Origin: a virus
Lineage: Duplodnaviria > Heunggongvirae > Uroviricota > Caudoviricetes
Direction: 5' to 3' (one strand)
DNA length: 37,395 nt
Virus record (IMG/VR): IMGVR_UViG_3300045988_031779
Coordinates: 1-37,395 of that record
Positions 1 through 32,260 of the stretch are shown here, in pieces (within the stretch, counting starts at the first letter, position 1; every line of letters starts with the position of its first letter). The translations under genes were made by a program, and so were the position numbers. The notes under the pieces were generated by a model. That model was not told the DNA's origin and searched no databases. It saw only the letters and a list, made by a program, of their open reading frames with translations.

Positions 1-753
1 AGCATTTTTAAATCGACTGACATCTGGAAGAGTTGATACTTTAAAAGTAAGCCCTAATCCGTCAATTTTATAACCTGGAGATGAGGCTTCAAGGCACGCG
101 CTTATTGCAGTGGAATCGTCATTTATACCATCACCAACAGCTCCAAAATCTTTGGGGCTAATAGCATCACGCATTTTATCCTGGAACGTTCGGTACACAG
201 CCCCAGAACCATACTGAATAAACCAACCAAAACCACCAACAACTCCGGCGATTGTAGCATCGACATAATTACGCATTGAGCGATTATTTACAGCGTCCTG
301 CTCAAATGATGGATCTGCAAGGTTAGAAATTTTGTTTTGCTTTGCATCGTAATATTTTGCAAGCAAAGATGGTTTCATCAATGCACGTCTGAACCACCCA
401 AAACATTGCTGGATCAGCATCGTCAGGTAGTCAAAGGCATCTTCATGCACTTCGGGGAAAAATTTTCCCTGATTGCGAAGGTCTGTGTCCTGCACTACAT
501 CAAGCACACGATCTATCGTAATTCGCCATCCAGTAGCAAGCGGAGACGGAAGAACCACAGAACCGCCACTATAAGTGCCCGCCCCAGTTACCGTATAACC
601 GGTATCCAGGACCAATTCTGTTACGTTCCCGTTCAGGTCAGACACCTGAACAACCAGGTCTGATTTTCTGAAAATTCGAAAAGTATACGGAAACGATGTC
701 GTAACGCCGTTACCGGTGTATTCGTTGTGGTCAACTTCGGTTGAGACCGTCAT
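1..753 (-). CDS. Tailspike/tail fibre protein, N-terminal ~251 aa; gene continues beyond window start
   Basis: Reverse-strand ORF starting ATG at 753..751 (GGAG upstream), no stop before position 1. N-terminus MTVSTEVDHNEYTGNGVTTSFPYTF... follows the spacing pattern of the T7 gp17-type virion-attachment domain; followed by FGAVGDGINDDSTAI, typical of the start of a pectate-lyase-like beta-helix. Not in the supplied ORF track because it is partial. Confidence 0.7.
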   Translation of the reverse strand, partial: MTVSTEVDHNEYTGNGVTTSFPYTFRIFRKSDLVVQVSDLNGNVTELVLDTGYTVTGAGTYSGGSVVLPSPLATGWRITIDRVLDVVQDTDLRNQGKFFPEVHEDAFDYLTMLIQQCFGWFRRALMKPSLLAKYYDAKQNKISNLADPSFEQDAVNNRSMRNYVDATIAGVVGGFGWFIQYGSGAVYRTFQDKMRDAISPKDFGAVGDGINDDSTAISACLEASSPGYKIDGLGLTFKVSTLPDVSRFKNA

Positions 754-909: not shown

Positions 910-929
910 TACTGTATAAACATACAGTT
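910..929 (+). promoter_or_regulatory. LexA (SOS) box-like site TACTGTATAAACATACAGTT
   Basis: CTGT-N8-ACAG with 17 of 20 matches to the E. coli LexA consensus TACTGTATATATATACAGTA; ends 20 bp upstream of the ATG at 949. Confidence 0.6.
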
Positions 930-948
930 ATTGCATGGAGAAGATAAG

Positions 949-1206
949 ATGCAGCAGTATCACTATCCACTGGAAGACGGATTTACCGAAAGGATTCACA
1001 CGCCGGGAGGCGTCAGGTCACTGGTGGAGGGATCGCACTTGATGAAATTACTCCGGGATCTCGATAAGGATGGATTTAATGTCGATGGCCCACTTGCCGA
1101 ACTGACTGCACTGATTAACTACGTCACCAGCTCACAGATGTCTATGCAGGATCTGCAAACACATCTCGACTATTGTGCCGAACAATTACGAAAACAAACC
1201 CGGTAA
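949..1206 (+). CDS. Small antirepressor-like protein (Tum-like), 85 aa
   Basis: ATG at 949 preceded by GGAG with about 8-nt spacing. Track ORF 826..1206 is the same frame but would contain the operator-like site and LexA box, so the shorter start is preferred. Product is clearly similar (roughly 45 percent identity by eye) to the C-terminal domain of the Bro-N antirepressor at 2355..3065. Confidence 0.5.
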   Translation: MQQYHYPLEDGFTERIHTPGGVRSLVEGSHLMKLLRDLDKDGFNVDGPLAELTALINYVTSSQMSMQDLQTHLDYCAEQLRKQTR

Positions 1207-1210
1207 ATTT

Positions 1211-1232
1211 AAAGGCCGCAAGAGCGGCCTAT
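1211..1232. terminator. Candidate bidirectional intrinsic terminator (GGCCGC-aaga-GCGGCC)
   Basis: 6-bp GC stem between convergent genes 949..1206(+) and 1229..1957(-), T/A-rich flanks on both sides; overlaps the stop of the minus-strand gene. Confidence 0.45.
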
Positions 1233-1957
1233 CGTTTCGCTTTGTGCTCGTCCCAGCACGTTTTGCACCATGCCATTAAGCCGTCCGCATTTTGATTATT
1301 AGGGTAAAAGCTGGTCCGTTTTCTGCGGACATTACAAATTGGGCACCACTTCATATGGCGTGTATTCTTTGGGCCATCGAGGCACCTTGCACACCACTTA
1401 GTCAATCCATCTGGATTTTTTGACGATTTCCGGAATTTGTCATATGGAAGGTTTATTCTGCATCGCAAACACTGCTTGCGGCCACTTGAAACTCTGTTAG
1501 CTGATTCTTCTTTTGGCGGCGATACAGAAGGTATTCTTGCTGGCTCTGATACTGCCTGAGGTGCTTTTTTAGATGACTGAGACGATATGTCATCACCAGG
1601 GAATCTTCCATGATATGCCGGACGCGTTGACACTCCAGGTGGAAGCTCAGCTGTAAACGGCTTTGGCTGAATCAGTTGCCTCTCTTTTGCTAACTCCTGC
1701 TGTTTATAATATGTCTGGATTACCGCACTATCATAAGCAGGAGGTACGGAAATATCAGGCGCGTTACCTCCAGTTTTTTGAAACTGAGTAGATGTGTGTT
1801 CTATCACCTGTGTACGACTAATCGTTACCTCCCCATCTTCGGTCTTTATCGTTTTGTTCTGATTAACGACCGTACGATCAGAGATCTTAGTCTTGTTCTG
1901 GTTGATAACGTAAATAATCACCGCAACCACACCAACAACTATCCAGAAAACTTCCAT
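1229..1957 (-). CDS. Single-pass membrane protein with C-terminal tandem Cys-rich (zinc-ribbon-like) repeats, 242 aa
   Basis: ATG at 1957 with GAGGA upstream; hydrophobic N-terminal helix FWIVVGVVAVIIYVI; C-terminus has two similar units NPDGLTKWCARC and NADGLMAWCKTC plus further Cys pairs. No family recognised. Confidence 0.55.
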   Translation of the reverse strand: MEVFWIVVGVVAVIIYVINQNKTKISDRTVVNQNKTIKTEDGEVTISRTQVIEHTSTQFQKTGGNAPDISVPPAYDSAVIQTYYKQQELAKERQLIQPKPFTAELPPGVSTRPAYHGRFPGDDISSQSSKKAPQAVSEPARIPSVSPPKEESANRVSSGRKQCLRCRINLPYDKFRKSSKNPDGLTKWCARCLDGPKNTRHMKWCPICNVRRKRTSFYPNNQNADGLMAWCKTCWDEHKAKR

Positions 1958-1976
1958 TGCTTTTCCTCACAATAAC

Positions 1977-1993
1977 ATTACCTTAAAGGTAAT
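1977..1993. promoter_or_regulatory. Operator-like palindrome site 2: ATTACC-ttaaa-GGTAAT
   Basis: Perfect palindrome 20-36 nt upstream of the start codon of 1229..1957(-). Confidence 0.5.
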
Positions 1994-2069
1994 ATCTTGC
2001 TTTCAGGTGATCAAGCGTTAAACGCAATCAACCAAATACGGTTGATTTTAATATTTCTTCGCGTTTATC

Positions 2070-2086
2070 ATTACCTTTGCGGTAAA
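2070..2086. promoter_or_regulatory. Operator-like palindrome site 3: ATTACC-tttgc-GGTAAA, with candidate promoter just upstream
   Basis: One mismatch to the palindrome; TTGATT (2040..2045) and TTATCA (2065..2070) form a plausible -35/-10 immediately upstream, reading rightward. Confidence 0.4.
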
Positions 2087-2198
2087 TTTACATCGCACTC
2101 CTCTTGTGCCATAGTAATCGGGCACTGGCAAAATCCAGTGCCGGGATTGGCGTCCCGGGTTACTAAGTGGCGCATACCACGCCAGACGTGGTTTTTTT
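2087..2198 (+). ncRNA. Candidate structured leader or small RNA upstream of the Bro-N antirepressor, ending in an intrinsic terminator
   Basis: Stem-loops at 2121..2142 (GGCACTGG-caaaat-CCAGTGCC) and 2141..2158 (CCGGGA-ttggcg-TCCCGG), then terminator 2177..2198. No convincing ORF; track ORF 1997..2308 lacks a ribosome-binding site and crosses the terminator. Confidence 0.3.
2177..2198 (+). terminator. Intrinsic terminator (CCACG-ccaga-CGTGG followed by 7 T)
   Basis: 5-bp GC-rich stem followed by TTTTTTT on the plus strand, about 155 bp upstream of the Bro-N antirepressor start. Confidence 0.5.
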
Positions 2199-2354
2199 AT
2201 GCGTTAAGCACAGCTATATCCGAATTATGGTGGGCTGGGCAGGGGTCCGAAAGGACGCCGGTACCACTTAGGCCGGTACGCCAACCTTGTCCAGTTCACC
2301 ACCAGTAATTGGCGTTGCGGTGGTGATTAAAATCACTAAGTGGAGATAACCACC

Positions 2355-3065
2355 ATGGCTAATGCTCAAACTTCCATCTTCAAATTTGAATCTGTTAACC
2401 CTATCCGTTCCATCATTATCGATGGCCAACCATGGTTTGTAGCCCAAGACGTTTGTAGTGCGCTGCGTATCCAAAACGTCACCCAAGCACTTGAAAAACT
2501 GGATGATGATGAAAGGTCTATGTTCAACATAGGGCATGAACATCGTGCAATTTTTGACAGCCGAGTAAAAGAGATCAACATCATCTCCGAGTCAGGCCTC
2601 TACACACTGATCCTCCGCTGCCGCGACGCAGTGACACCAGGCACTATCCCCTACCGCTTTCGTAAATGGGTTACAGGTGAGGTTCTTCCTCAGATCCGCC
2701 GCACCGGAAGCTACATTAAAAACTCGCTCCCGCAGGAAGAACGCATAAAGATGGTTGCCGACCAGGTAGCCAACGCCACAGCATCAGCAGTGATGCAGGC
2801 AATGAAGATAGAGAACAAAACCTACAGCGCCCCACTGAAGCCCGGCTACCGCAGCCTGATTCATTCGCCGTCTGGTGTTCTCGGCCTGACGGAGCACTCA
2901 CTGCTGATGAATCTGCTGAACCAGTTACAGGACGACGGGCACGACGTATCGGGCGCGGCGGCGGAGCTGACCACCATGTTCTGCTACATCGTCGGTGTGA
3001 GCAAATGCCTGCGTGATATCCAGACCCACGCGGAGTACATCAACGACAAAGCAGGGTTCTTCTGA
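2355..3065 (+). CDS. Bro-N domain antirepressor with Ant/KilA-C-type C-terminal domain, 236 aa
   Basis: ATG at 2355 with GGAG 9 nt upstream (track ORF begins at GTG 2340 in the same frame). N-terminus IFKFESVNPIRSIIIDGQPWFVAQDVCSALRIQN matches the Bro-N signature; C-terminal domain is paralogous to 949..1206. Confidence 0.7.
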   Translation: MANAQTSIFKFESVNPIRSIIIDGQPWFVAQDVCSALRIQNVTQALEKLDDDERSMFNIGHEHRAIFDSRVKEINIISESGLYTLILRCRDAVTPGTIPYRFRKWVTGEVLPQIRRTGSYIKNSLPQEERIKMVADQVANATASAVMQAMKIENKTYSAPLKPGYRSLIHSPSGVLGLTEHSLLMNLLNQLQDDGHDVSGAAAELTTMFCYIVGVSKCLRDIQTHAEYINDKAGFF

Positions 3066-3136: not shown

Positions 3137-3153
3137 ATTACCCTAAAGGTAAA
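3137..3153. promoter_or_regulatory. Operator-like palindrome site 4: ATTACC-ctaaa-GGTAAA
   Basis: 26-42 nt upstream of the ATG at 3179. Confidence 0.45.
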
Positions 3154-3178
3154 CCATGTGTTTACATGAGGAGGAGAT

Positions 3179-3388
3179 ATGGGATTTTGGTTCGCTCGTA
3201 CAAAAACGAGGGATAATGCACCCAGCCCTCAGGCAAAAAATGCAGAAGTTCCGGCGTCAGCGCAGGTTAACAAGCGTGGTGGAGTATATATCTCATCACA
3301 GCAAATTTCTGAGCTTCCTGAGGTTAAAGAGATGCGTCGTCTCGCTGCTGCAATTGTTAAACAGGATCTTGCCACTGTAAGGAAATAG
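3179..3388 (+). CDS. Hypothetical small protein, 69 aa
   Basis: ATG at 3179 with strong GAGGAGGA upstream; ordinary GC content; stop overlaps the GTG start of the next gene (TAGTG). Confidence 0.45.
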   Translation: MGFWFARTKTRDNAPSPQAKNAEVPASAQVNKRGGVYISSQQISELPEVKEMRRLAAAIVKQDLATVRK

Positions 3389-4251
3389 TGTTGTTAGCTC
3401 TTCTAATTATCCCCATTCTGGTTAGTGGTTATATTATGATAACCGCTAACCAGTATCATTATTTCCGTTTATACCGACATGAAGGCCAGCTTCTTTATAT
3501 GAAAGTAGCTGCATTAGGTACATATTGCCTTGTTGCTTCAGTAATAATTGCCGCATTTATAAAATGTAAATATCCTGATTTTCACCTAGTTCACGACATG
3601 GTGGAAACTTTTAATGTAACGTCAAAACCAGAAACAGATAGAATTTACATGTGGCTACTTCTTCTGTCAGTCACATCAATTTGCTTCTCTTTGTGTTATG
3701 TATCTTTTGTTTGGCTAAAAGATCTTCTTTTAGGTTGTTTTTATAAACGTGATATTTATGACAAAATATCAGAGGCAATGAAAGCTAGAGTATTGCGAAA
3801 AACGTACTCCCAGGGTTCTTTAGATTTGCTATTGCTTGATGCAATCGAATCAGATCCTAAGAAACCAATGTTAATTACTTTATCATCAAATAAAGTATAC
3901 GTTGGAATAATAAATGGTTCTGGTGAGCCAACGGAAAATCAAGGGCCACACCAACACATATCTTTTGTTCCTTTAATGTCAGGGTACAGAAACAAAGAAA
4001 ATTTATCTGTTACATTTACAAACGCTTACCCAGGTGAAATCCAAATTAAGCGCAGTGCTGCGATAAAAGGGATAAGCAAAAAGAAAGTTCAAGGTCTAGA
4101 AATTATGGTATCTATAGACGAAATAAGTCATATATCATGGTTTGACTTTGAAGTATATAAGGCAACCAATAACAAAGTAGAAACAAAGGGTCATGTTGTT
4201 AATGTGACCAAAAATGGTCGCAACATATACTACAGAAGTGGCAGGAAATAA
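3388..4251 (+). CDS. Polytopic membrane protein (about 3 predicted TM helices plus ~170-aa soluble C-terminal domain), 287 aa, AT-rich cargo
   Basis: GTG start overlapping the upstream stop, GGAA 5 nt upstream. Hydrophobic segments LLALLIIPILVSGYIMI, VAALGTYCLVASVIIAAFI, MWLLLLSVTSICFSLCYVSFVW. Sequence visibly AT-rich compared with flanking phage genes (by eye, not computed). No family recognised. Confidence 0.6.
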   Translation: MLLALLIIPILVSGYIMITANQYHYFRLYRHEGQLLYMKVAALGTYCLVASVIIAAFIKCKYPDFHLVHDMVETFNVTSKPETDRIYMWLLLLSVTSICFSLCYVSFVWLKDLLLGCFYKRDIYDKISEAMKARVLRKTYSQGSLDLLLLDAIESDPKKPMLITLSSNKVYVGIINGSGEPTENQGPHQHISFVPLMSGYRNKENLSVTFTNAYPGEIQIKRSAAIKGISKKKVQGLEIMVSIDEISHISWFDFEVYKATNNKVETKGHVVNVTKNGRNIYYRSGRK

Positions 4252-4267
4252 TTTTTACGTAGTTTAG

Positions 4268-4780
4268 GTGGCTTATATGGATAATACTATCTTAGGCGCA
4301 TTGATAGGTGCAGTTATTGCTATAGTTTCTACTTACATAAGTGCAAGGCAAGGATACAAAAACAGCATAAAATTAGAGCGCGAAAAAATATTAAGAGATA
4401 AACGTGAGCAATTATTCACAAATTGCATACTTACTGAAAAAGTCATAGCTTCAAACAAAATGGCTATTCTCAATTTTGTTAACAATGCCAGTTACCACTC
4501 TGATAGTAAATTTGACACATCAAAAGTCAATCCGTTGCAAACGATGGAAATGCTAATAAACATATACCTTCCTGAGTATAAAAAAGACTTACAAGAACTC
4601 AATAATATGTATAACAAGTTTCACAATTACTACTCTCAATATACATGTGCACATACCTTCAAAAATATGCCTGATAATGAGAAGTTGAAGTTTATTGAGG
4701 AAGCTGATTTTTATGCAAAAAAGATATATGGCAAACTTAATGATATTAAGGACAAGATATCATTTAACTCAATAGTATAA
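4268..4780 (+). CDS. Membrane-anchored protein (one N-terminal TM helix, Lys/Asn-rich soluble domain), 170 aa, AT-rich cargo
   Basis: ATG at 4268, 16 nt after the previous stop, with AGGTGG upstream. TM helix ILGALIGAVIAIVSTYI. No family recognised. Confidence 0.6.
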   Translation: MAYMDNTILGALIGAVIAIVSTYISARQGYKNSIKLEREKILRDKREQLFTNCILTEKVIASNKMAILNFVNNASYHSDSKFDTSKVNPLQTMEMLINIYLPEYKKDLQELNNMYNKFHNYYSQYTCAHTFKNMPDNEKLKFIEEADFYAKKIYGKLNDIKDKISFNSIV

Positions 4781-4855
4781 CAGCGATACTGCCGCTGACG
4801 GCTCCCGCTGCGGTGGGCGTTCTGCGGATTCCCGCCCGGGCGGCGGTGGAATTCG

Positions 4856-5740
4856 TTAAAAACAAGGCCGCGAAAGCGGCCTGTTTGATAACTGTGCAGT
4901 TTTCGCTGATCGATTTTCAGCTCTAAATTCAAGAACCGTTTCAATATTTCTTTCCTTCAGCATATCAATAACATTTTTATTCATTTGACTATCACTGGTT
5001 AATAACTGGTAAACGTCGCTTCTCTCTTTATCAGAGTTTTCTTTAACAGCTGCTTTGCATGCCAAATGCTTATTGAAATTTTCTACATCGCTAGTACAGG
5101 AATTTACGGCTGCTGATGAAATATCAGACGCTGAAGAAACACCATCATCCAAACGTTTTATAGCATTTTCTATACATGAGTTAAGGGAATAAACGACAAC
5201 TGAGCGATACCCTTCAGACGCACACCATTCTAAATTTCTTGAAGGATCGAGTGGTTTTACTTCGCTGGATTGAATTAACTTGTCAAAAACTGACTTATAT
5301 TCAATCTGTTTTTTATCTATAGCCCATACTTCAGTAGCTGATTTATAATTCCCCGTATGCCTATTAACATCAAATCCATGTTTTATAAGCAAATCTGCCC
5401 ATGAAAGATTTATTGATTCATTGTTATGAGGCCATTTTCCTGTCAGAACCGCCCCCATAGACCCCATATATCCGCCATATGATGGTATAGCACCATGGCT
5501 CAGTAACTTCTCAGCAACCACAGGGCAATTAATTACATAAGAGGCGTAAAGCCCATTCCATAAAGCCCCTCTATAGTAATCGCCACGATTAGGTTCTTTT
5601 AAGTCGATAGCCTTTGATAATTGTTCACACGTTTTGCATGCATCAAAGTTATCCTTATTGCATTGCAATGAACTGGCAGCTGTAGGATTTACAGAGACTA
5701 TTGAAAGCACTATGCCAAAAAACAAATTTATTTTTTTCAT
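4856..5740 (-). CDS. Secreted protein with Sec-type signal peptide, AT-rich; weak ankyrin-repeat-like motifs, 294 aa
   Basis: ATG at 5740, 1 nt after the stop of the 1129-aa virion protein gene. N-terminus MKKINLFFGIVLSIVSVNPTAASS is signal-peptide-like; ADLLIKHGFDVN and AEKLLSHGA resemble ankyrin repeat ends (weak). Confidence 0.55.
   Translation of the reverse strand: MKKINLFFGIVLSIVSVNPTAASSLQCNKDNFDACKTCEQLSKAIDLKEPNRGDYYRGALWNGLYASYVINCPVVAEKLLSHGAIPSYGGYMGSMGAVLTGKWPHNNESINLSWADLLIKHGFDVNRHTGNYKSATEVWAIDKKQIEYKSVFDKLIQSSEVKPLDPSRNLEWCASEGYRSVVVYSLNSCIENAIKRLDDGVSSASDISSAAVNSCTSDVENFNKHLACKAAVKENSDKERSDVYQLLTSDSQMNKNVIDMLKERNIETVLEFRAENRSAKTAQLSNRPLSRPCF
4866..4883. terminator. Bidirectional intrinsic terminator candidate (AGGCCGC-gaaa-GCGGCCT)
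   Basis: 7-bp GC stem with GAAA loop, flanked by AAAAACA upstream and GTTTGAT downstream, at the convergence of the plus-strand module and the minus-strand late operon; overlaps the last codons of 4856..5740. Confidence 0.5.
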
Positions 5741-31290: not shown

Positions 31291-31521
31291 TCATGAGTAG
31301 AAGAAGTATGCCAATTCTGCTTTTGAGCGCAGCCATTGTCTTGTTTTACAGGCTTTAAAAAGCCCATTCATCAATACCTTACCTGGCATTTTGCGCTTAC
31401 CTGTTAAGTGAGTCTGGATATAGTGACTCGTCGTTCCGGCTTCCTGTGCGAAGGCTTCACGCTCATCCGGAGTAAGTGCAAGCCAGTGCTTTTTGAAATC
31501 GAAATGTCCGTTATCGCTCAT
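31291..31521 (-). CDS. Cro/CII-like small helix-turn-helix regulator, 76 aa
   Basis: Divergent from the repressor gene across the operator cluster; HTH-like segment EREAFAQEAGTTSHYIQTHLTGKR. Confidence 0.5.
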   Translation of the reverse strand: MSDNGHFDFKKHWLALTPDEREAFAQEAGTTSHYIQTHLTGKRKMPGKVLMNGLFKACKTRQWLRSKAELAYFFYS

Positions 31522-31556: not shown

Positions 31557-31621
31557 TTCACCCATAAGGTAACAAAAATCAAGGATAGTTACCTATGAGG
31601 TGCATTTACCTGTTGGGTAAT
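31557..31621. promoter_or_regulatory. Cluster of three operator-like sites in the repressor/cro divergent region
   Basis: TTCACC-cataa-GGTAAC (31557..31573), GTTACC-tatga-GGTGCA (31588..31604, weakest), TTTACC-tgttg-GGTAAT (31605..31621). Confidence 0.55.
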
Positions 31622-31675: not shown

Positions 31676-32260
31676 ATGAAAAGTATCCAGGACGTCCGCA
31701 GGCAAAATCTCAACGACTTGATCGACCGTGAATTCAATGGTGTTCAGACGCGGATGGCAGAAAAACTTGGAACTCAGGCAAATCTGGTAAACCGCTGGGC
31801 TCTTGGCAAGAAGGTTATCGGCGACCAGGTTGCACGAAAAATTGAAGCTGCCGCCAATAAACCCCGTAACTGGCTTGATATCGATCGCTCGCTTTCTCAG
31901 GAAGGTTTTCAGCCTGTCGGCCCAAGCGACATTGGTCAGCTGGCGGCTCACAACCTGGAACGCTGGATGAGCGAAAGCCGCGACCTTTCAACGCAGGGAA
32001 AACTTCACCGCGCATCCGGCGTCGCCCAGGTGACAATCAGTCGCCTGTTAAACAATGAGGTCAGCGTTTCCATTTCCACCCTGGAGAATGTTGCATCCGC
32101 ATTCGGGCGTCACGGCTATGAATTACTGATTCACCCGCACGACCCTGCGACCATCAACTATGACCGCTCGCGCTACGCATTGTTACCCGAAACCGAGAAA
32201 GCAAAGATCGAAAGTTACATTGAATTTGTCATCAACCAGAACGAAAAAAACAAACAATAA
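31676..32260 (+). CDS. Prophage repressor, tandem helix-turn-helix type, no recognisable LexA-like peptidase domain, 194 aa
   Basis: Two HTH-like segments (VQTRMAEKLGTQANLVNRW and ASGVAQVTISRLLNNE); no Ala-Gly cleavage site or Ser/Lys dyad region seen; divergent from the cro-like gene; followed by a strong terminator. Confidence 0.6.
   Translation: MKSIQDVRRQNLNDLIDREFNGVQTRMAEKLGTQANLVNRWALGKKVIGDQVARKIEAAANKPRNWLDIDRSLSQEGFQPVGPSDIGQLAAHNLERWMSESRDLSTQGKLHRASGVAQVTISRLLNNEVSVSISTLENVASAFGRHGYELLIHPHDPATINYDRSRYALLPETEKAKIESYIEFVINQNEKNKQ

What the first reader, a model, noticed from the sequence alone, without database searches (positions are those of the whole stretch)
1229..1957. Membrane-anchored protein with duplicated Cys-rich C-terminal units, controlled by an operator-like site
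One N-terminal TM helix, a Pro/Ser/Gln-rich linker, and a C-terminal region with two similar units (NPDGLTKWCARC and NADGLMAWCKTC) plus further Cys-x2-Cys pairs. It has a perfect operator-like palindrome 20 bp upstream of its start and lies between the two antirepressor-type genes. No family recognised; a membrane-tethered zinc-binding module in the immunity-accessory region is unusual.
Basis: seen in the sequence. Interest (0 to 1): 0.5.

Follow-up and report, generated by a model that had tools for sequence, protein, structure and literature searches.

The report
Repressor-controlled membrane-tethered zinc-ribbon phage protein
A real, conserved but uncharacterised accessory gene of an E. coli prophage encodes a protein anchored in the inner membrane that dangles two zinc-binding modules into the cytoplasm; the phage's own repressor controls its promoter, and it most plausibly excludes competing phages, though no experiment yet shows this.

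Summary
Window 1229-1957 (-) is an intact 242-aa gene with one N-terminal TM helix, a conserved beta-hairpin, a poorly conserved Pro/Ser/Ala-rich linker and two duplicated Cys4 zinc ribbons. All eight Cys are invariant. pN/pS is 0.06 in the zinc module and 0.72 in the linker.

The palindrome ATTACCTTAAAGGTAAT (1977-1993) is one of 12 copies of the prophage's CI/Cro operator (0.08 expected). It contains the gene's likely -10 hexamer (TTGATC-17-TACCTT). This geometry recurs in 12 of 14 diverged loci, and the operator switches type together with the host phage's other operators.

The window is a phiV10/epsilon15-like (Uetakevirus) prophage. The gene is a self-contained ~870-bp cassette absent from phiV10, inserted beside a P1-type C4-RNA/antirepressor module.

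The family is PHROG 6762 (unknown function; PGAP "hypothetical protein"; 129 of 5426 complete E. coli genomes). The zinc module resembles Stc1-type tandem fingers and the zinc scaffolds of HNH nucleases, but has no catalytic residues.

In distant relatives the gene sits directly downstream of cI (six cases) or mnt (one case). These are the slots of lambda rexAB and P22 sieA.

Best guess (about 0.4): a new kind of superinfection-exclusion or defence factor acting at the cytoplasmic face of the membrane. The function is untested.

The parts
1229..1957 (-). CDS, 242 aa (stop codon 1229-1231); PHROG 6762 family member
   Evidence: All 52 close IMG/VR copies recovered are intact. pN/pS over the whole gene is 0.27.
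1895..1957 (-). Residues 1-21: single N-terminal transmembrane helix; predicted N-out / C-in signal anchor with no cleavable signal peptide
   Evidence: Kyte-Doolittle maximum 2.3 at residues 1-19. Flank charges are -1 on the N side and +3 on the C side. AF2 helix 2-21, pLDDT about 90.
1802..1876 (-). Residues 28-52: conserved juxtamembrane beta-hairpin (TVxxQxxTIKTEDGExxIxRTQV)
   Evidence: AF2 strands 29-39 and 42-52. T39 and G42 are invariant. pN/pS for residues 1-60 is 0.29.
1484..1801 (-). Residues 53-158: variable Pro/Ser/Ala-rich linker, mostly predicted disordered, with one helix at 77-90
   Evidence: Block-mean pLDDT about 46-64. Composition. Length and sequence vary among homologues. 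pN/pS 0.72.
1376..1483 (-). Residues 159-194: zinc ribbon 1 (C163, C166, C189, C192)
   Evidence: Invariant Cys. pLDDT above 90. Pfam Stc1 hit at residues 161-193. PHROG 1035 hit at 142-192.
1232..1354 (-). Residues 202-242: zinc ribbon 2 (C205, C208, C231, C234) plus a basic C-terminal helix
   Evidence: Internal repeat E 3e-7. The zinc module (159-242) carries net charge +15, pI 10 and has pN/pS 0.064.
1965..1968 (-). Shine-Dalgarno GAGG, 7 nt upstream of the ATG
   Evidence: Read from the sequence.
1977..1993 (.). Perfect 17-bp operator ATTACCTTAAAGGTAAT; one of 12 CI/Cro-type operators in the window
   Evidence: 12 sites against 0.08 expected. One consensus-type site (31605-31621), plus two degenerate copies noted by eye, lies in the cI/cro intergenic region; paired sites precede early operons.
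1986..2014 (-). Putative sigma-70 promoter TTGATC(2014-2009)-17 nt-TACCTT(1991-1986); the -10 hexamer is the operator's half-site
   Evidence: Sequence reading. The same 17-nt geometry is found in 12 of 14 diverged loci. It falls below the threshold of the generic promoter scan.
1213..1230 (.). GC-rich hairpin overlapping the stop codon; terminator-like, shared with the convergent gene 949-1206
   Evidence: 7 pairs, 6 of them GC, then TTAAATTT on the minus strand.
1207..2080 (.). Cassette (terminator, gene, promoter/operator) that is absent from phage phiV10
   Evidence: blastn against phiV10: homology stops at window 1206 and resumes at 2081; phiV10 annotation.
2070..2086 (.). Second operator (ATTACCTTTGCGGTAAA) on the divergent C4-RNA/antirepressor promoter, centred 93 bp from the first
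   Evidence: Rfam c4-a1b1, isrK and C4 hits at 2109-2306.

Best explanation
What it is (shown or strongly inferred). The gene is a mobile accessory ("moron") cassette of a Uetakevirus-type prophage. It encodes a bitopic inner-membrane protein. A 2-residue N-terminus faces the periplasm. One TM helix and a conserved juxtamembrane beta-hairpin hold the protein at the membrane. A flexible spacer of about 100 residues lets a strongly basic module of two Cys4 zinc ribbons reach into the cytoplasm just under the membrane. The ribbons are Stc1-like and resemble the zinc scaffolds of HNH nucleases, but they lack catalytic residues.

Regulation (inferred). Transcription starts from a weak sigma-70 promoter whose -10 hexamer lies inside a perfect copy of the prophage repressor's operator. 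CI should therefore shut the gene off, or hold it at a low level, in the lysogen. The gene should fire immediately on infection or induction, together with the neighbouring antirepressor genes.

How it most likely works (inferred, not shown). It is a superinfection-exclusion or defence factor. The tethered zinc-ribbon module would bind nucleic acid, or an ejected or early protein of an incoming phage, at the cytoplasmic mouth of the DNA-entry site. This would either block productive entry or, through the TM/hairpin part, perturb the membrane in a Rex-like way. In this reading it is a single-polypeptide analogue of the membrane protein plus DNA-binding sensor logic of lambda RexB/RexA. It occupies the rexAB slot (directly after cI) in distant relatives and the sieA slot (after mnt, beside the ejection-protein genes) in podoviruses.
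For: Real gene under selection: all 52 close copies recovered are intact. pN/pS is 0.064 for the zinc module, 0.29 for the TM plus hairpin, and 0.72 for the linker. The eight Cys and the TM/hairpin are conserved.

Architecture.

Moron character: the gene has its own promoter/operator and terminator, and it is absent from phiV10. It is sporadic: 129 of 5426 complete E. coli genomes and only 3 of about 185,000 species-representative genomes.

Repressor control is selected: the operator is one of 12 copies. The -35/17 nt/-10-inside-operator geometry occurs in 12 of 14 diverged loci. The operator changes to TTAACC-N5-GGTTAA in L072/L075, in step with that phage's other sites.

Genomic slots typical of exclusion genes:
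- 18-54 nt downstream of, and co-oriented with, a cI-type repressor gene in Aeromonas phage phiARM81mr, Acinetobacter L091 and metagenomic L097, L098 and L099/L100. In L101 one small ORF intervenes.
- 12 nt downstream of mnt in L007.
- Convergent with ejection-protein genes in nearly all podovirus contexts, as described for P22 sieA (PMC10883804).

RexAB logic and slot: PMC12894663.

Weak, recurrent similarity of the N-terminal module to PHROGs annotated superinfection exclusion: family 8545 in 6 of 25 members and family 4980 in 5 of 25, best E 8e-4.
Against: - There is no experimental evidence of any kind.
- There is no match to any PADLOC defence model and no significant homology to SieA, Rex or other known exclusion proteins.
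- In this window the operator covers the -10 hexamer, so the gene is predicted to be off in the lysogen, which is where classical prophage exclusion acts.
- To my knowledge, known injection blockers act through periplasmic or multi-pass membrane parts, not a cytoplasmic zinc module.
- The PHROG exclusion-family hits are weak and involve a TM helix, which attracts spurious matches.
- Stc1 and LIM-type fingers are protein-binding, so DNA binding is not assured.
- Positional arguments (moron hot spots next to immunity genes and at the end of the late operon) also fit other accessory functions.
Confidence: 0.4

Rival explanations
1. Modulator of the immunity (lysis/lysogeny) circuit. The tethered zinc fingers would bind a regulator (CI, an antirepressor, or a host factor such as a protease or RecA/LexA-pathway component) and sequester it at the membrane during the early decision period.
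For: - The gene is almost always next to immunity genes. It is between two antirepressor-type genes here. It lies downstream of ant in L068, L072 and L087, next to KilA-N/ANT genes in Serratia and in L094, and directly after cI or mnt in seven relatives.
- Expression early after infection is the common denominator of all the regulatory contexts.
- Stc1 and LIM-type fingers are protein-interaction modules.
Against: - The gene is dispensable for close relatives with the same circuit (phiV10 lacks it).
- It moves between phages with different repressor types (tandem-HTH CI here, S24-type CI, Mnt), so a specific partner within the circuit is unlikely.
- No membrane sequestration of phage repressors or antirepressors is known to me.
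Confidence: 0.15
2. Membrane anchor for the phage's own DNA. An early protein would tether the incoming or replicating genome to the inner membrane, by analogy with phi29 p16.7, to organise replication or protect DNA ends.
For: - Same overall architecture as p16.7 (N-terminal TM, spacer, C-terminal DNA-binding domain; this comparison rests on my own knowledge).
- Predicted early, repressor-controlled expression.
- Basic zinc module related to modules fused to nucleases, primase and helicases.
Against: - Its sporadic, cassette-like distribution and absence from sister phages argue against a core replication role.
- Co-transcription with cI or mnt in lysogens serves no purpose for a replication organiser.
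Confidence: 0.12
3. Early counter-defence or host-takeover protein, for example restriction alleviation or inhibition of a membrane-associated host defence or of cell division.
For: - The promoter is CI-repressed and predicted to fire immediately on infection.
- The gene is an accessory cassette.
- Zinc unit 2 matches a PHROG annotated Lar-like restriction alleviation protein (E 2.5e-8).
Against: - The Lar-like hit covers only the generic zinc ribbon.
- Placement behind cI or mnt in relatives implies expression in lysogens, which is atypical for anti-defence genes.
- No specific similarity to a known anti-defence protein was found.
Confidence: 0.1
4. Opposite topology. The Cys-rich domain would be periplasmic and disulfide-bonded, blocking DNA injection in the periplasm like classical Sie proteins.
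For: - To my knowledge, known single-TM Sie proteins expose their C-terminal domain outside the cytoplasm.
- Eight Cys could in principle form four disulfides.
- There are weak PHROG Sie hits.
Against: - The positive-inside rule favours C-in: -1 on the N side, +3 just after the TM, and +15 in the zinc module.
- The N-terminus has no positively charged n-region.
- The module is homologous to zinc ribbons of cytoplasmic nucleases and to Stc1.
Confidence: 0.06

Closest known systems
P22 SieA (superinfection exclusion A)
   Same: Both are inner-membrane proteins encoded by a non-essential gene between the ejection-protein genes and the tailspike/immI region of a temperate podovirus. In relative L007 the homologue lies directly after mnt, the region where P22 carries sieA (PMC10883804).
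   Different: No sequence similarity was detected. SieA is described with several predicted transmembrane sections and a conserved FxRYPxEAxxFNK motif, and has no zinc module. This protein has one TM helix and a large cytoplasmic zinc-ribbon domain. SieA is expressed in the lysogen, whereas here the promoter carries a CI operator.
Lambda RexA/RexB-type exclusion systems
   Same: Both combine a membrane component with a DNA-binding sensor. Rex sits immediately downstream of cI, a slot used by six distant relatives of this protein (PMC12894663).
   Different: Rex has two proteins: multi-pass RexB and soluble RexA. Here there is one polypeptide with a single TM helix. No homology was found (no Rex family among the Pfam, PHROG or PADLOC hits). 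In this window the gene is not next to cI.
Stc1 tandem zinc finger (Pfam PF12898; PDB 2LUY) and LIM domains
   Same: Two consecutive Cys4 zinc units. Stc1 is the only Pfam family hit consistently (23 of 36 members). It is also the top Foldseek PDB hit (prob 0.80, E 0.012), followed by Hpy99I and then LIM proteins.
Cys4 zinc scaffolds of beta-beta-alpha-Me (HNH) nucleases: Hpy99I, PacI, and phage families annotated endonuclease VII / HNH
   Different: No conserved His or Asn lies within the units (invariant columns), so there is no nuclease active site. The unit is duplicated and membrane-tethered.
phi29 p16.7 and E. coli ZipA (architectural analogues; from my own knowledge)
   Same: Both have an N-terminal membrane anchor, a flexible or extended spacer, and a C-terminal cytoplasmic binding domain. 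ZipA also has the N-out/C-in topology and a P/Q-rich linker. p16.7 is an early phage protein that binds DNA at the membrane.
   Different: Neither is homologous to this protein. p16.7 and ZipA have non-zinc C-terminal domains and core roles (replication organisation, divisome), whereas this gene is a sporadic accessory cassette.

Membership tests
PHROG 6762 (phage protein family of unknown function) | Full-length match to the family profile | tested here: met
   E 1.4e-148, residues 1-242 against profile positions 1-242 of 242.
Pfam Stc1 domain (PF12898) | Score at or above the curated gathering cut-off (24.8 bits) | tested here: not met
   21.5 bits for the whole protein and 24.0 bits for the isolated domain. 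23 of 36 relatives hit at E <= 0.01.
Pfam Stc1 domain (PF12898) | Tandem zinc finger with eight conserved Cys; fold like PDB 2LUY | tested here: inconclusive
HNH / beta-beta-alpha-Me endonucleases (endonuclease VII, PacI, Hpy99I) | Cys4 zinc scaffold of the same shape | tested here: met
HNH / beta-beta-alpha-Me endonucleases (endonuclease VII, PacI, Hpy99I) | Conserved catalytic His (general base) and Asn/His metal ligand | tested here: not met
   Invariant columns inside the units are only Cys, Lys, Phe, Ser, Asp, Gly, Thr and Trp. H201 lies between the units and is lost in wider relatives.
P22 SieA superinfection-exclusion family | Several predicted transmembrane sections and the motif FxRYPxEAxxFNK (PMC10883804) | tested here: not met
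   One hydrophobic segment only. The motif is absent from the sequence.
P22 SieA superinfection-exclusion family | Gene located between the ejection-protein genes and the tailspike/immI region | tested here: met
   The window gene lies between the tailspike N-terminus (1-751) and the immI region. It converges on large ejection-type genes in nearly all podovirus loci.
P22 SieA superinfection-exclusion family | Blocks DNA injection by related phages when expressed alone | not testable with these tools
   Needs plating and DNA-entry assays.
Lambda RexAB-type abortive-infection systems | Two genes (a RexA-like DNA binder and a RexB-like multi-pass membrane protein) downstream of cI | tested here: not met
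   This is a single gene with one TM helix. No Rex family appears among the Pfam, PHROG or PADLOC hits. Only the slot is shared, and only in six relatives, not in this window.
Moron (autonomous accessory cassette in a phage genome) | Own promoter and terminator; absent from closely related genomes | tested here: met
   Promoter/operator at 1977-2014 and hairpin at 1213-1230. phiV10 lacks window 1207-2080. Of the 19 matching phage records, only the two copies of the TL-2011b genome cover at least 80% of the query.
CI regulon of this prophage | Copy of the ATTACC-N5-GGTAAT operator overlapping the promoter | tested here: met
   Perfect site at 1977-1993 among 12 sites. The geometry is shared with early promoters and conserved across phages. 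Actual binding by the 31676-32260 protein is not testable here.
Known anti-phage defence systems (PADLOC-DB 2.0) | Match to any defence protein model | tested here: not met
   Only a TniQ hit at E 2.3.

The most novel reading that the evidence does not exclude
A previously unrecognised class of single-gene phage exclusion or defence protein: a one-polypeptide "mini-Rex". A membrane-tethered, non-catalytic HNH-derived/Stc1-like zinc-ribbon pair senses or captures incoming phage DNA at the cytoplasmic face of the inner membrane. Its TM/hairpin part then either blocks the entry conduit or depolarises the membrane. The gene has been captured repeatedly behind cI or mnt, or, in epsilon15-like phages, wired directly into the repressor's regulon.
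Probability: 0.2. Interest if true: 0.7.

Novelty: new variant of a known kind. Interest (0 to 1): 0.45.

Why it matters
About 2% of complete E. coli genomes carry this gene, as do prophages of Salmonella, Enterobacter, Citrobacter, Serratia, Providencia, Yersinia, Aeromonas and Acinetobacter. It is annotated everywhere as "hypothetical protein".

If it is an exclusion or defence factor, it would add a mechanistically new type: a cytoplasm-facing, zinc-ribbon-based, single-pass membrane protein. That would bear on phage-therapy host range and prophage competition.

It would also give a function to a very widespread small zinc-ribbon unit (1589 representative proteins at E <= 1e-3, in up to 10 copies per protein) that is otherwise known only as an appendage of nucleases and helicases.

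Independently of function, the locus is a clean example of a mobile cassette whose promoter -10 element doubles as the resident repressor's half-site and co-evolves with repressor specificity.

Tried and rejected
- **Full-length AF2 model against PDB (Foldseek).** Nothing significant. The disordered linker dilutes the signal, so the zinc module was modelled and searched separately.
- **afdb50 fold library.** Not available.
- **NCBIfam and PADLOC.** No meaningful hits.
- **Partner-gene idea.** A 287-aa ORF follows the homologue in L007, and there is a 287-aa ORF at window 3388-4251. I tested whether they are a conserved partner; they are unrelated.
- **TL-2011b pseudogene idea.** The GenBank record marks the gene as a misc_feature and tblastn started at residue 19.
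- **Active HNH/endonuclease VII nuclease.** Rejected because there are no conserved catalytic residues.
- **SieA or Rex family membership.** Rejected (see membership tests).
- **Spanin, holin or secreted-protein readings.** These rested on weak N-terminal PHROG hits. Rejected on context (the gene is not in the lysis cassette here) and on topology.
- **Literature searches.** Searches for the protein accession, the PHROG id, Stc1 in phages, and zinc-ribbon exclusion proteins found no characterisation.
- **Species-representative genome scan.** Only 3 loci, so it added little beyond showing the gene is sporadic.
- **Alternative CI-activated leftward promoter.** I considered a -10 TAAAAT at 2046-2051 with the 2070-2086 operator abutting -35. 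It could not be supported beyond sequence reading and is left as a caveat.
Full report
**Setting.** The window is a phiV10/epsilon15/TL-2011b-like (Uetakevirus) prophage of E. coli. DNA around the finding is 94% identical to phage TL-2011b over 96% of the query. It matches phiV10 only in the flanks. An identical copy lies in the chromosome of E. coli CUVET20-PYO2, where PGAP calls the product "hypothetical protein" WP_021518473.1.

- Window 1229-1957 (-) is a 242-aa ATG-initiated ORF with GAGG 7 nt upstream.
- The only hydrophobic stretch is residues 1-19 (Kyte-Doolittle 2.3). Its flanks carry -1 (N side) and +3 (first 16 residues after it), which by the positive-inside rule predicts N-out/C-in.
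- AlphaFold2 with a 29-sequence alignment gives a helix at 2-21, a long beta-hairpin at 29-52, a helix at 77-90 and a low-confidence stretch to about residue 158. Two compact units follow at 160-194 and 202-241, with block-mean pLDDT above 90.
- The units are a true internal duplication: 35% identity over 37 ungapped residues, E 3e-7.
- Each unit has two CxxC pairs. All eight Cys are invariant or nearly so in 29 homologues and invariant in 36 wider relatives.
- The module 159-242 has net charge +15 and pI 10.

**It is a real gene under selection.**
- All 52 close copies recovered from IMG/VR are intact.
- Across 38 distinct alleles pN/pS is 0.27 overall. It is 0.064 in the zinc module, 0.29 in the TM/hairpin and 0.72 in the linker.
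- The 100%-identity cluster holds 424 member sequences.
- 129 of 5426 complete E. coli genomes carry the gene.

**Family.**
- The protein matches PHROG 6762 (unknown function) end to end (E 1e-148).
- No Pfam model passes its cut-off. Stc1 (PF12898) is the only recurrent hit: 21.5-24.0 bits against a cut-off of 24.8, and 23 of 36 relatives at E <= 0.01.
- NCBIfam and PADLOC give nothing.
- An exhaustive profile search of 1.84 billion representative proteins finds 1589 proteins at E <= 1e-3. Several dozen share the whole architecture. Many others carry 2-10 copies of the zinc unit, some alongside helicase or HEAT domains.
- Short versions also exist with a TM helix plus a single unit, or with a different N-terminal part. 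Named examples come from Neisseria and Pasteurellaceae.

**The zinc module.**
- A separate model (36 sequences, pLDDT 89.8) has the Stc1 tandem zinc finger 2LUY as best Foldseek hit (prob 0.80), followed by Hpy99I and then LIM proteins.
- The PacI N-terminal zinc motif also aligns by sequence.
- The unit matches the N-terminal parts of PHROG families annotated endonuclease VII, HNH endonuclease, Lar-like and primase.
- No His or Asn is conserved inside the units, so this is a non-catalytic zinc scaffold.
- Its fusion partners and its charge suggest nucleic-acid binding. The Stc1/LIM resemblance leaves protein binding open. Both are inferences.

**The operator.**
- ATTACCTTAAAGGTAAT (1977-1993) is one of 12 matches (at most 1 mismatch) to ATTACC-N5-GGTAAT, against 0.08 expected.
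- One consensus-type site (31605-31621), plus two degenerate copies I noted by eye, lies between a tandem-HTH repressor gene (31676-32260, +; no S24 peptidase domain) and a cro-like gene (31291-31521, -).
- Pairs of sites 62 bp apart precede the recombination operon and lie within the replication/resolvase gene region. Single sites precede the C4/ant operon, the 85-aa gene at 949 and the ORF at 3179.
- At these promoters the -10 hexamer abuts or overlaps the left half-site.
- For the target gene the only plausible promoter is TTGATC(2014-2009)-17 nt-TACCTT(1991-1986), so its -10 is the half-site itself.
- The same TTGNNN-17-TAnnnT arrangement appears in 12 of 14 diverged loci, from Serratia, Enterobacter/Citrobacter/Salmonella-type and other phages.
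- In L072/L075 the operator is TTAACC-N5-GGTTAA. That type occurs three times in each of those loci, which have no ATTACC-type site.
- Operator control therefore travels with the gene and is re-tuned to each resident repressor. I infer repression in the lysogen and expression immediately after infection or induction. Binding and transcription were not measured.

**It is a cassette.**
- phiV10 is colinear up to window 1206 and again from 2081. About 870 bp have therefore been inserted between the epsilon15 gp19-like gene and the operator of the C4/ant operon.
- The inserted segment comprises a GC-rich hairpin that overlaps the stop codon (1213-1230), the gene, and its promoter/operator.
- Rfam identifies c4-a1b1 (2109-2161), isrK (2122-2198) and C4 antisense RNA (2223-2306) just upstream of the Bro-N antirepressor at 2352-3065. 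This is a P1-type immI module.

**Contexts elsewhere.**
- In podoviruses the gene almost always converges on the large ejection/internal-virion protein genes. It usually lies within 1 kb of an antirepressor-type gene.
- In L007 it starts 12 nt after mnt, with arc-ant divergent. This is the region where P22 carries sieA (PMC10883804).
- In more distant relatives it lies immediately downstream of, and co-oriented with, a cI-type repressor gene. Examples are Aeromonas phage phiARM81mr (18 nt), Acinetobacter L091 (54 nt, with a hairpin between), L097 (20 nt), L098 (23 nt) and L099/L100 (34 nt). In L101 one small ORF intervenes.
- That is the slot of lambda rexAB, a DNA-binding sensor plus membrane effector (PMC12894663).
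- There are thus two regulatory regimes: co-transcription with a maintenance repressor, and an operator-embedded promoter of its own. Both give expression early after infection. Only the first gives expression in the stable lysogen.

**Interpretation.**
- Several features are those of prophage exclusion or defence genes: sporadic, cassette-like distribution; dispensability in sister phages; repeated capture in the rexAB and sieA slots; and a membrane anchor.
- I therefore favour, at about 0.4, a superinfection-exclusion or abortive-infection role. In that role the tethered zinc module would recognise incoming DNA or proteins at the inner face of the membrane.
- Arguments against are listed in the report sections. 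The main ones are predicted repression in this lysogen, the lack of homology to any known system, and the cytoplasmic rather than periplasmic functional domain.
- The rivals are an immunity-circuit modulator (0.15), a p16.7-like anchor for the phage's own DNA (0.12), an early counter-defence protein (0.1) and the inverted topology (0.06).

**Novelty.** No paper in the searchable library mentions the protein, its PHROG or an equivalent architecture. It is best filed as a new variant of a known kind: a phage accessory membrane protein of the immunity region. Its domain combination is undescribed and its function is untested.

Noticed in passing
window 910-929 and 949-1206 (+): A strong LexA box (TACTGTATAAACATACAGTT) lies 20 nt upstream of the 85-aa gene, which also has a CI operator at 857-873. 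It is the only match in the window within 3 mismatches of the 20-nt consensus (0 expected). The 85-aa protein matches only the C-terminal part of antirepressors (PHROG 450). The prophage repressor (31676-32260) has two HTH domains and no S24 autocleavage domain. This looks like a Gifsy- or 186-style SOS-controlled small antirepressor.
   Followed up: partly
window 2109-2306 (+) and 2352-3065 (+): A P1-type immI module sits in a podovirus: Rfam c4-a1b1 targets, isrK and C4 antisense RNA lie directly upstream of a Bro-N antirepressor gene. Two candidate promoters flank a CI operator at 2070-2086.
   Followed up: partly
window 857, 1977, 2070, 3137, 20867, 24060, 24078, 29187, 29249, 31605, 32317, 32379: Twelve ATTACC-N5-GGTAAT operators are scattered over the genome in a P1-like way. 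Several form pairs at helically phased spacings: 62 bp twice, and 93 bp between the two sites flanking the divergent promoters at 1977 and 2070. This suggests cooperative binding or looping.
   Followed up: partly
window 2026-2047; L063-L068 about 74 nt upstream of the homologue's ATG: A second palindrome lies in the divergent promoter region (AATCAACC-N6-GGTTGATT) and overlaps the -35 of the C4/ant promoter. In the Enterobacter/Citrobacter/Salmonella-type phages a different palindrome (TGTGACATGTCACA in L064, L067 and L068; one-mismatch variants in the others) sits just upstream of the homologue's -35. These may be sites for further regulators.
   Followed up: no
window 3137-5740: A cluster of further accessory genes follows the antirepressor. 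It comprises a 69-aa ORF with its own CI operator (PHROG 5739), a 287-aa ORF with hydrophobic segments (PHROG 3630, probably a membrane protein), a 170-aa ORF with a hydrophobic N-terminus, and a 294-aa Cys-containing ORF with a signal-peptide-like N-terminus on the opposite strand. None has a known function.
   Followed up: no
L001 4429-5517 (TL-2011b, JQ011317.1 34153-35241): The GenBank record of phage TL-2011b annotates this gene only as a misc_feature, "similar to hypothetical protein", spanning 1089 bp that run into the C4 RNA region.
   Followed up: yes
proteins P0049, P0098, P0105, P0112: The same zinc-ribbon unit occurs in up to 10 tandem copies in very large proteins (up to 2046 aa), combined with HEAT repeats or SF1/SF2 helicase domains. 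This points to a widespread, undescribed repeat module.
   Followed up: no
window 1-751 (-); L092 1407-4525: The window starts inside the N-terminal, epsilon15/phiV10-type head-binding part of the tailspike gene. In the matching E. coli chromosome locus (identical over the gene and its promoter region) the tailspike is annotated as an endosialidase-domain protein and is frameshifted.
   Followed up: no
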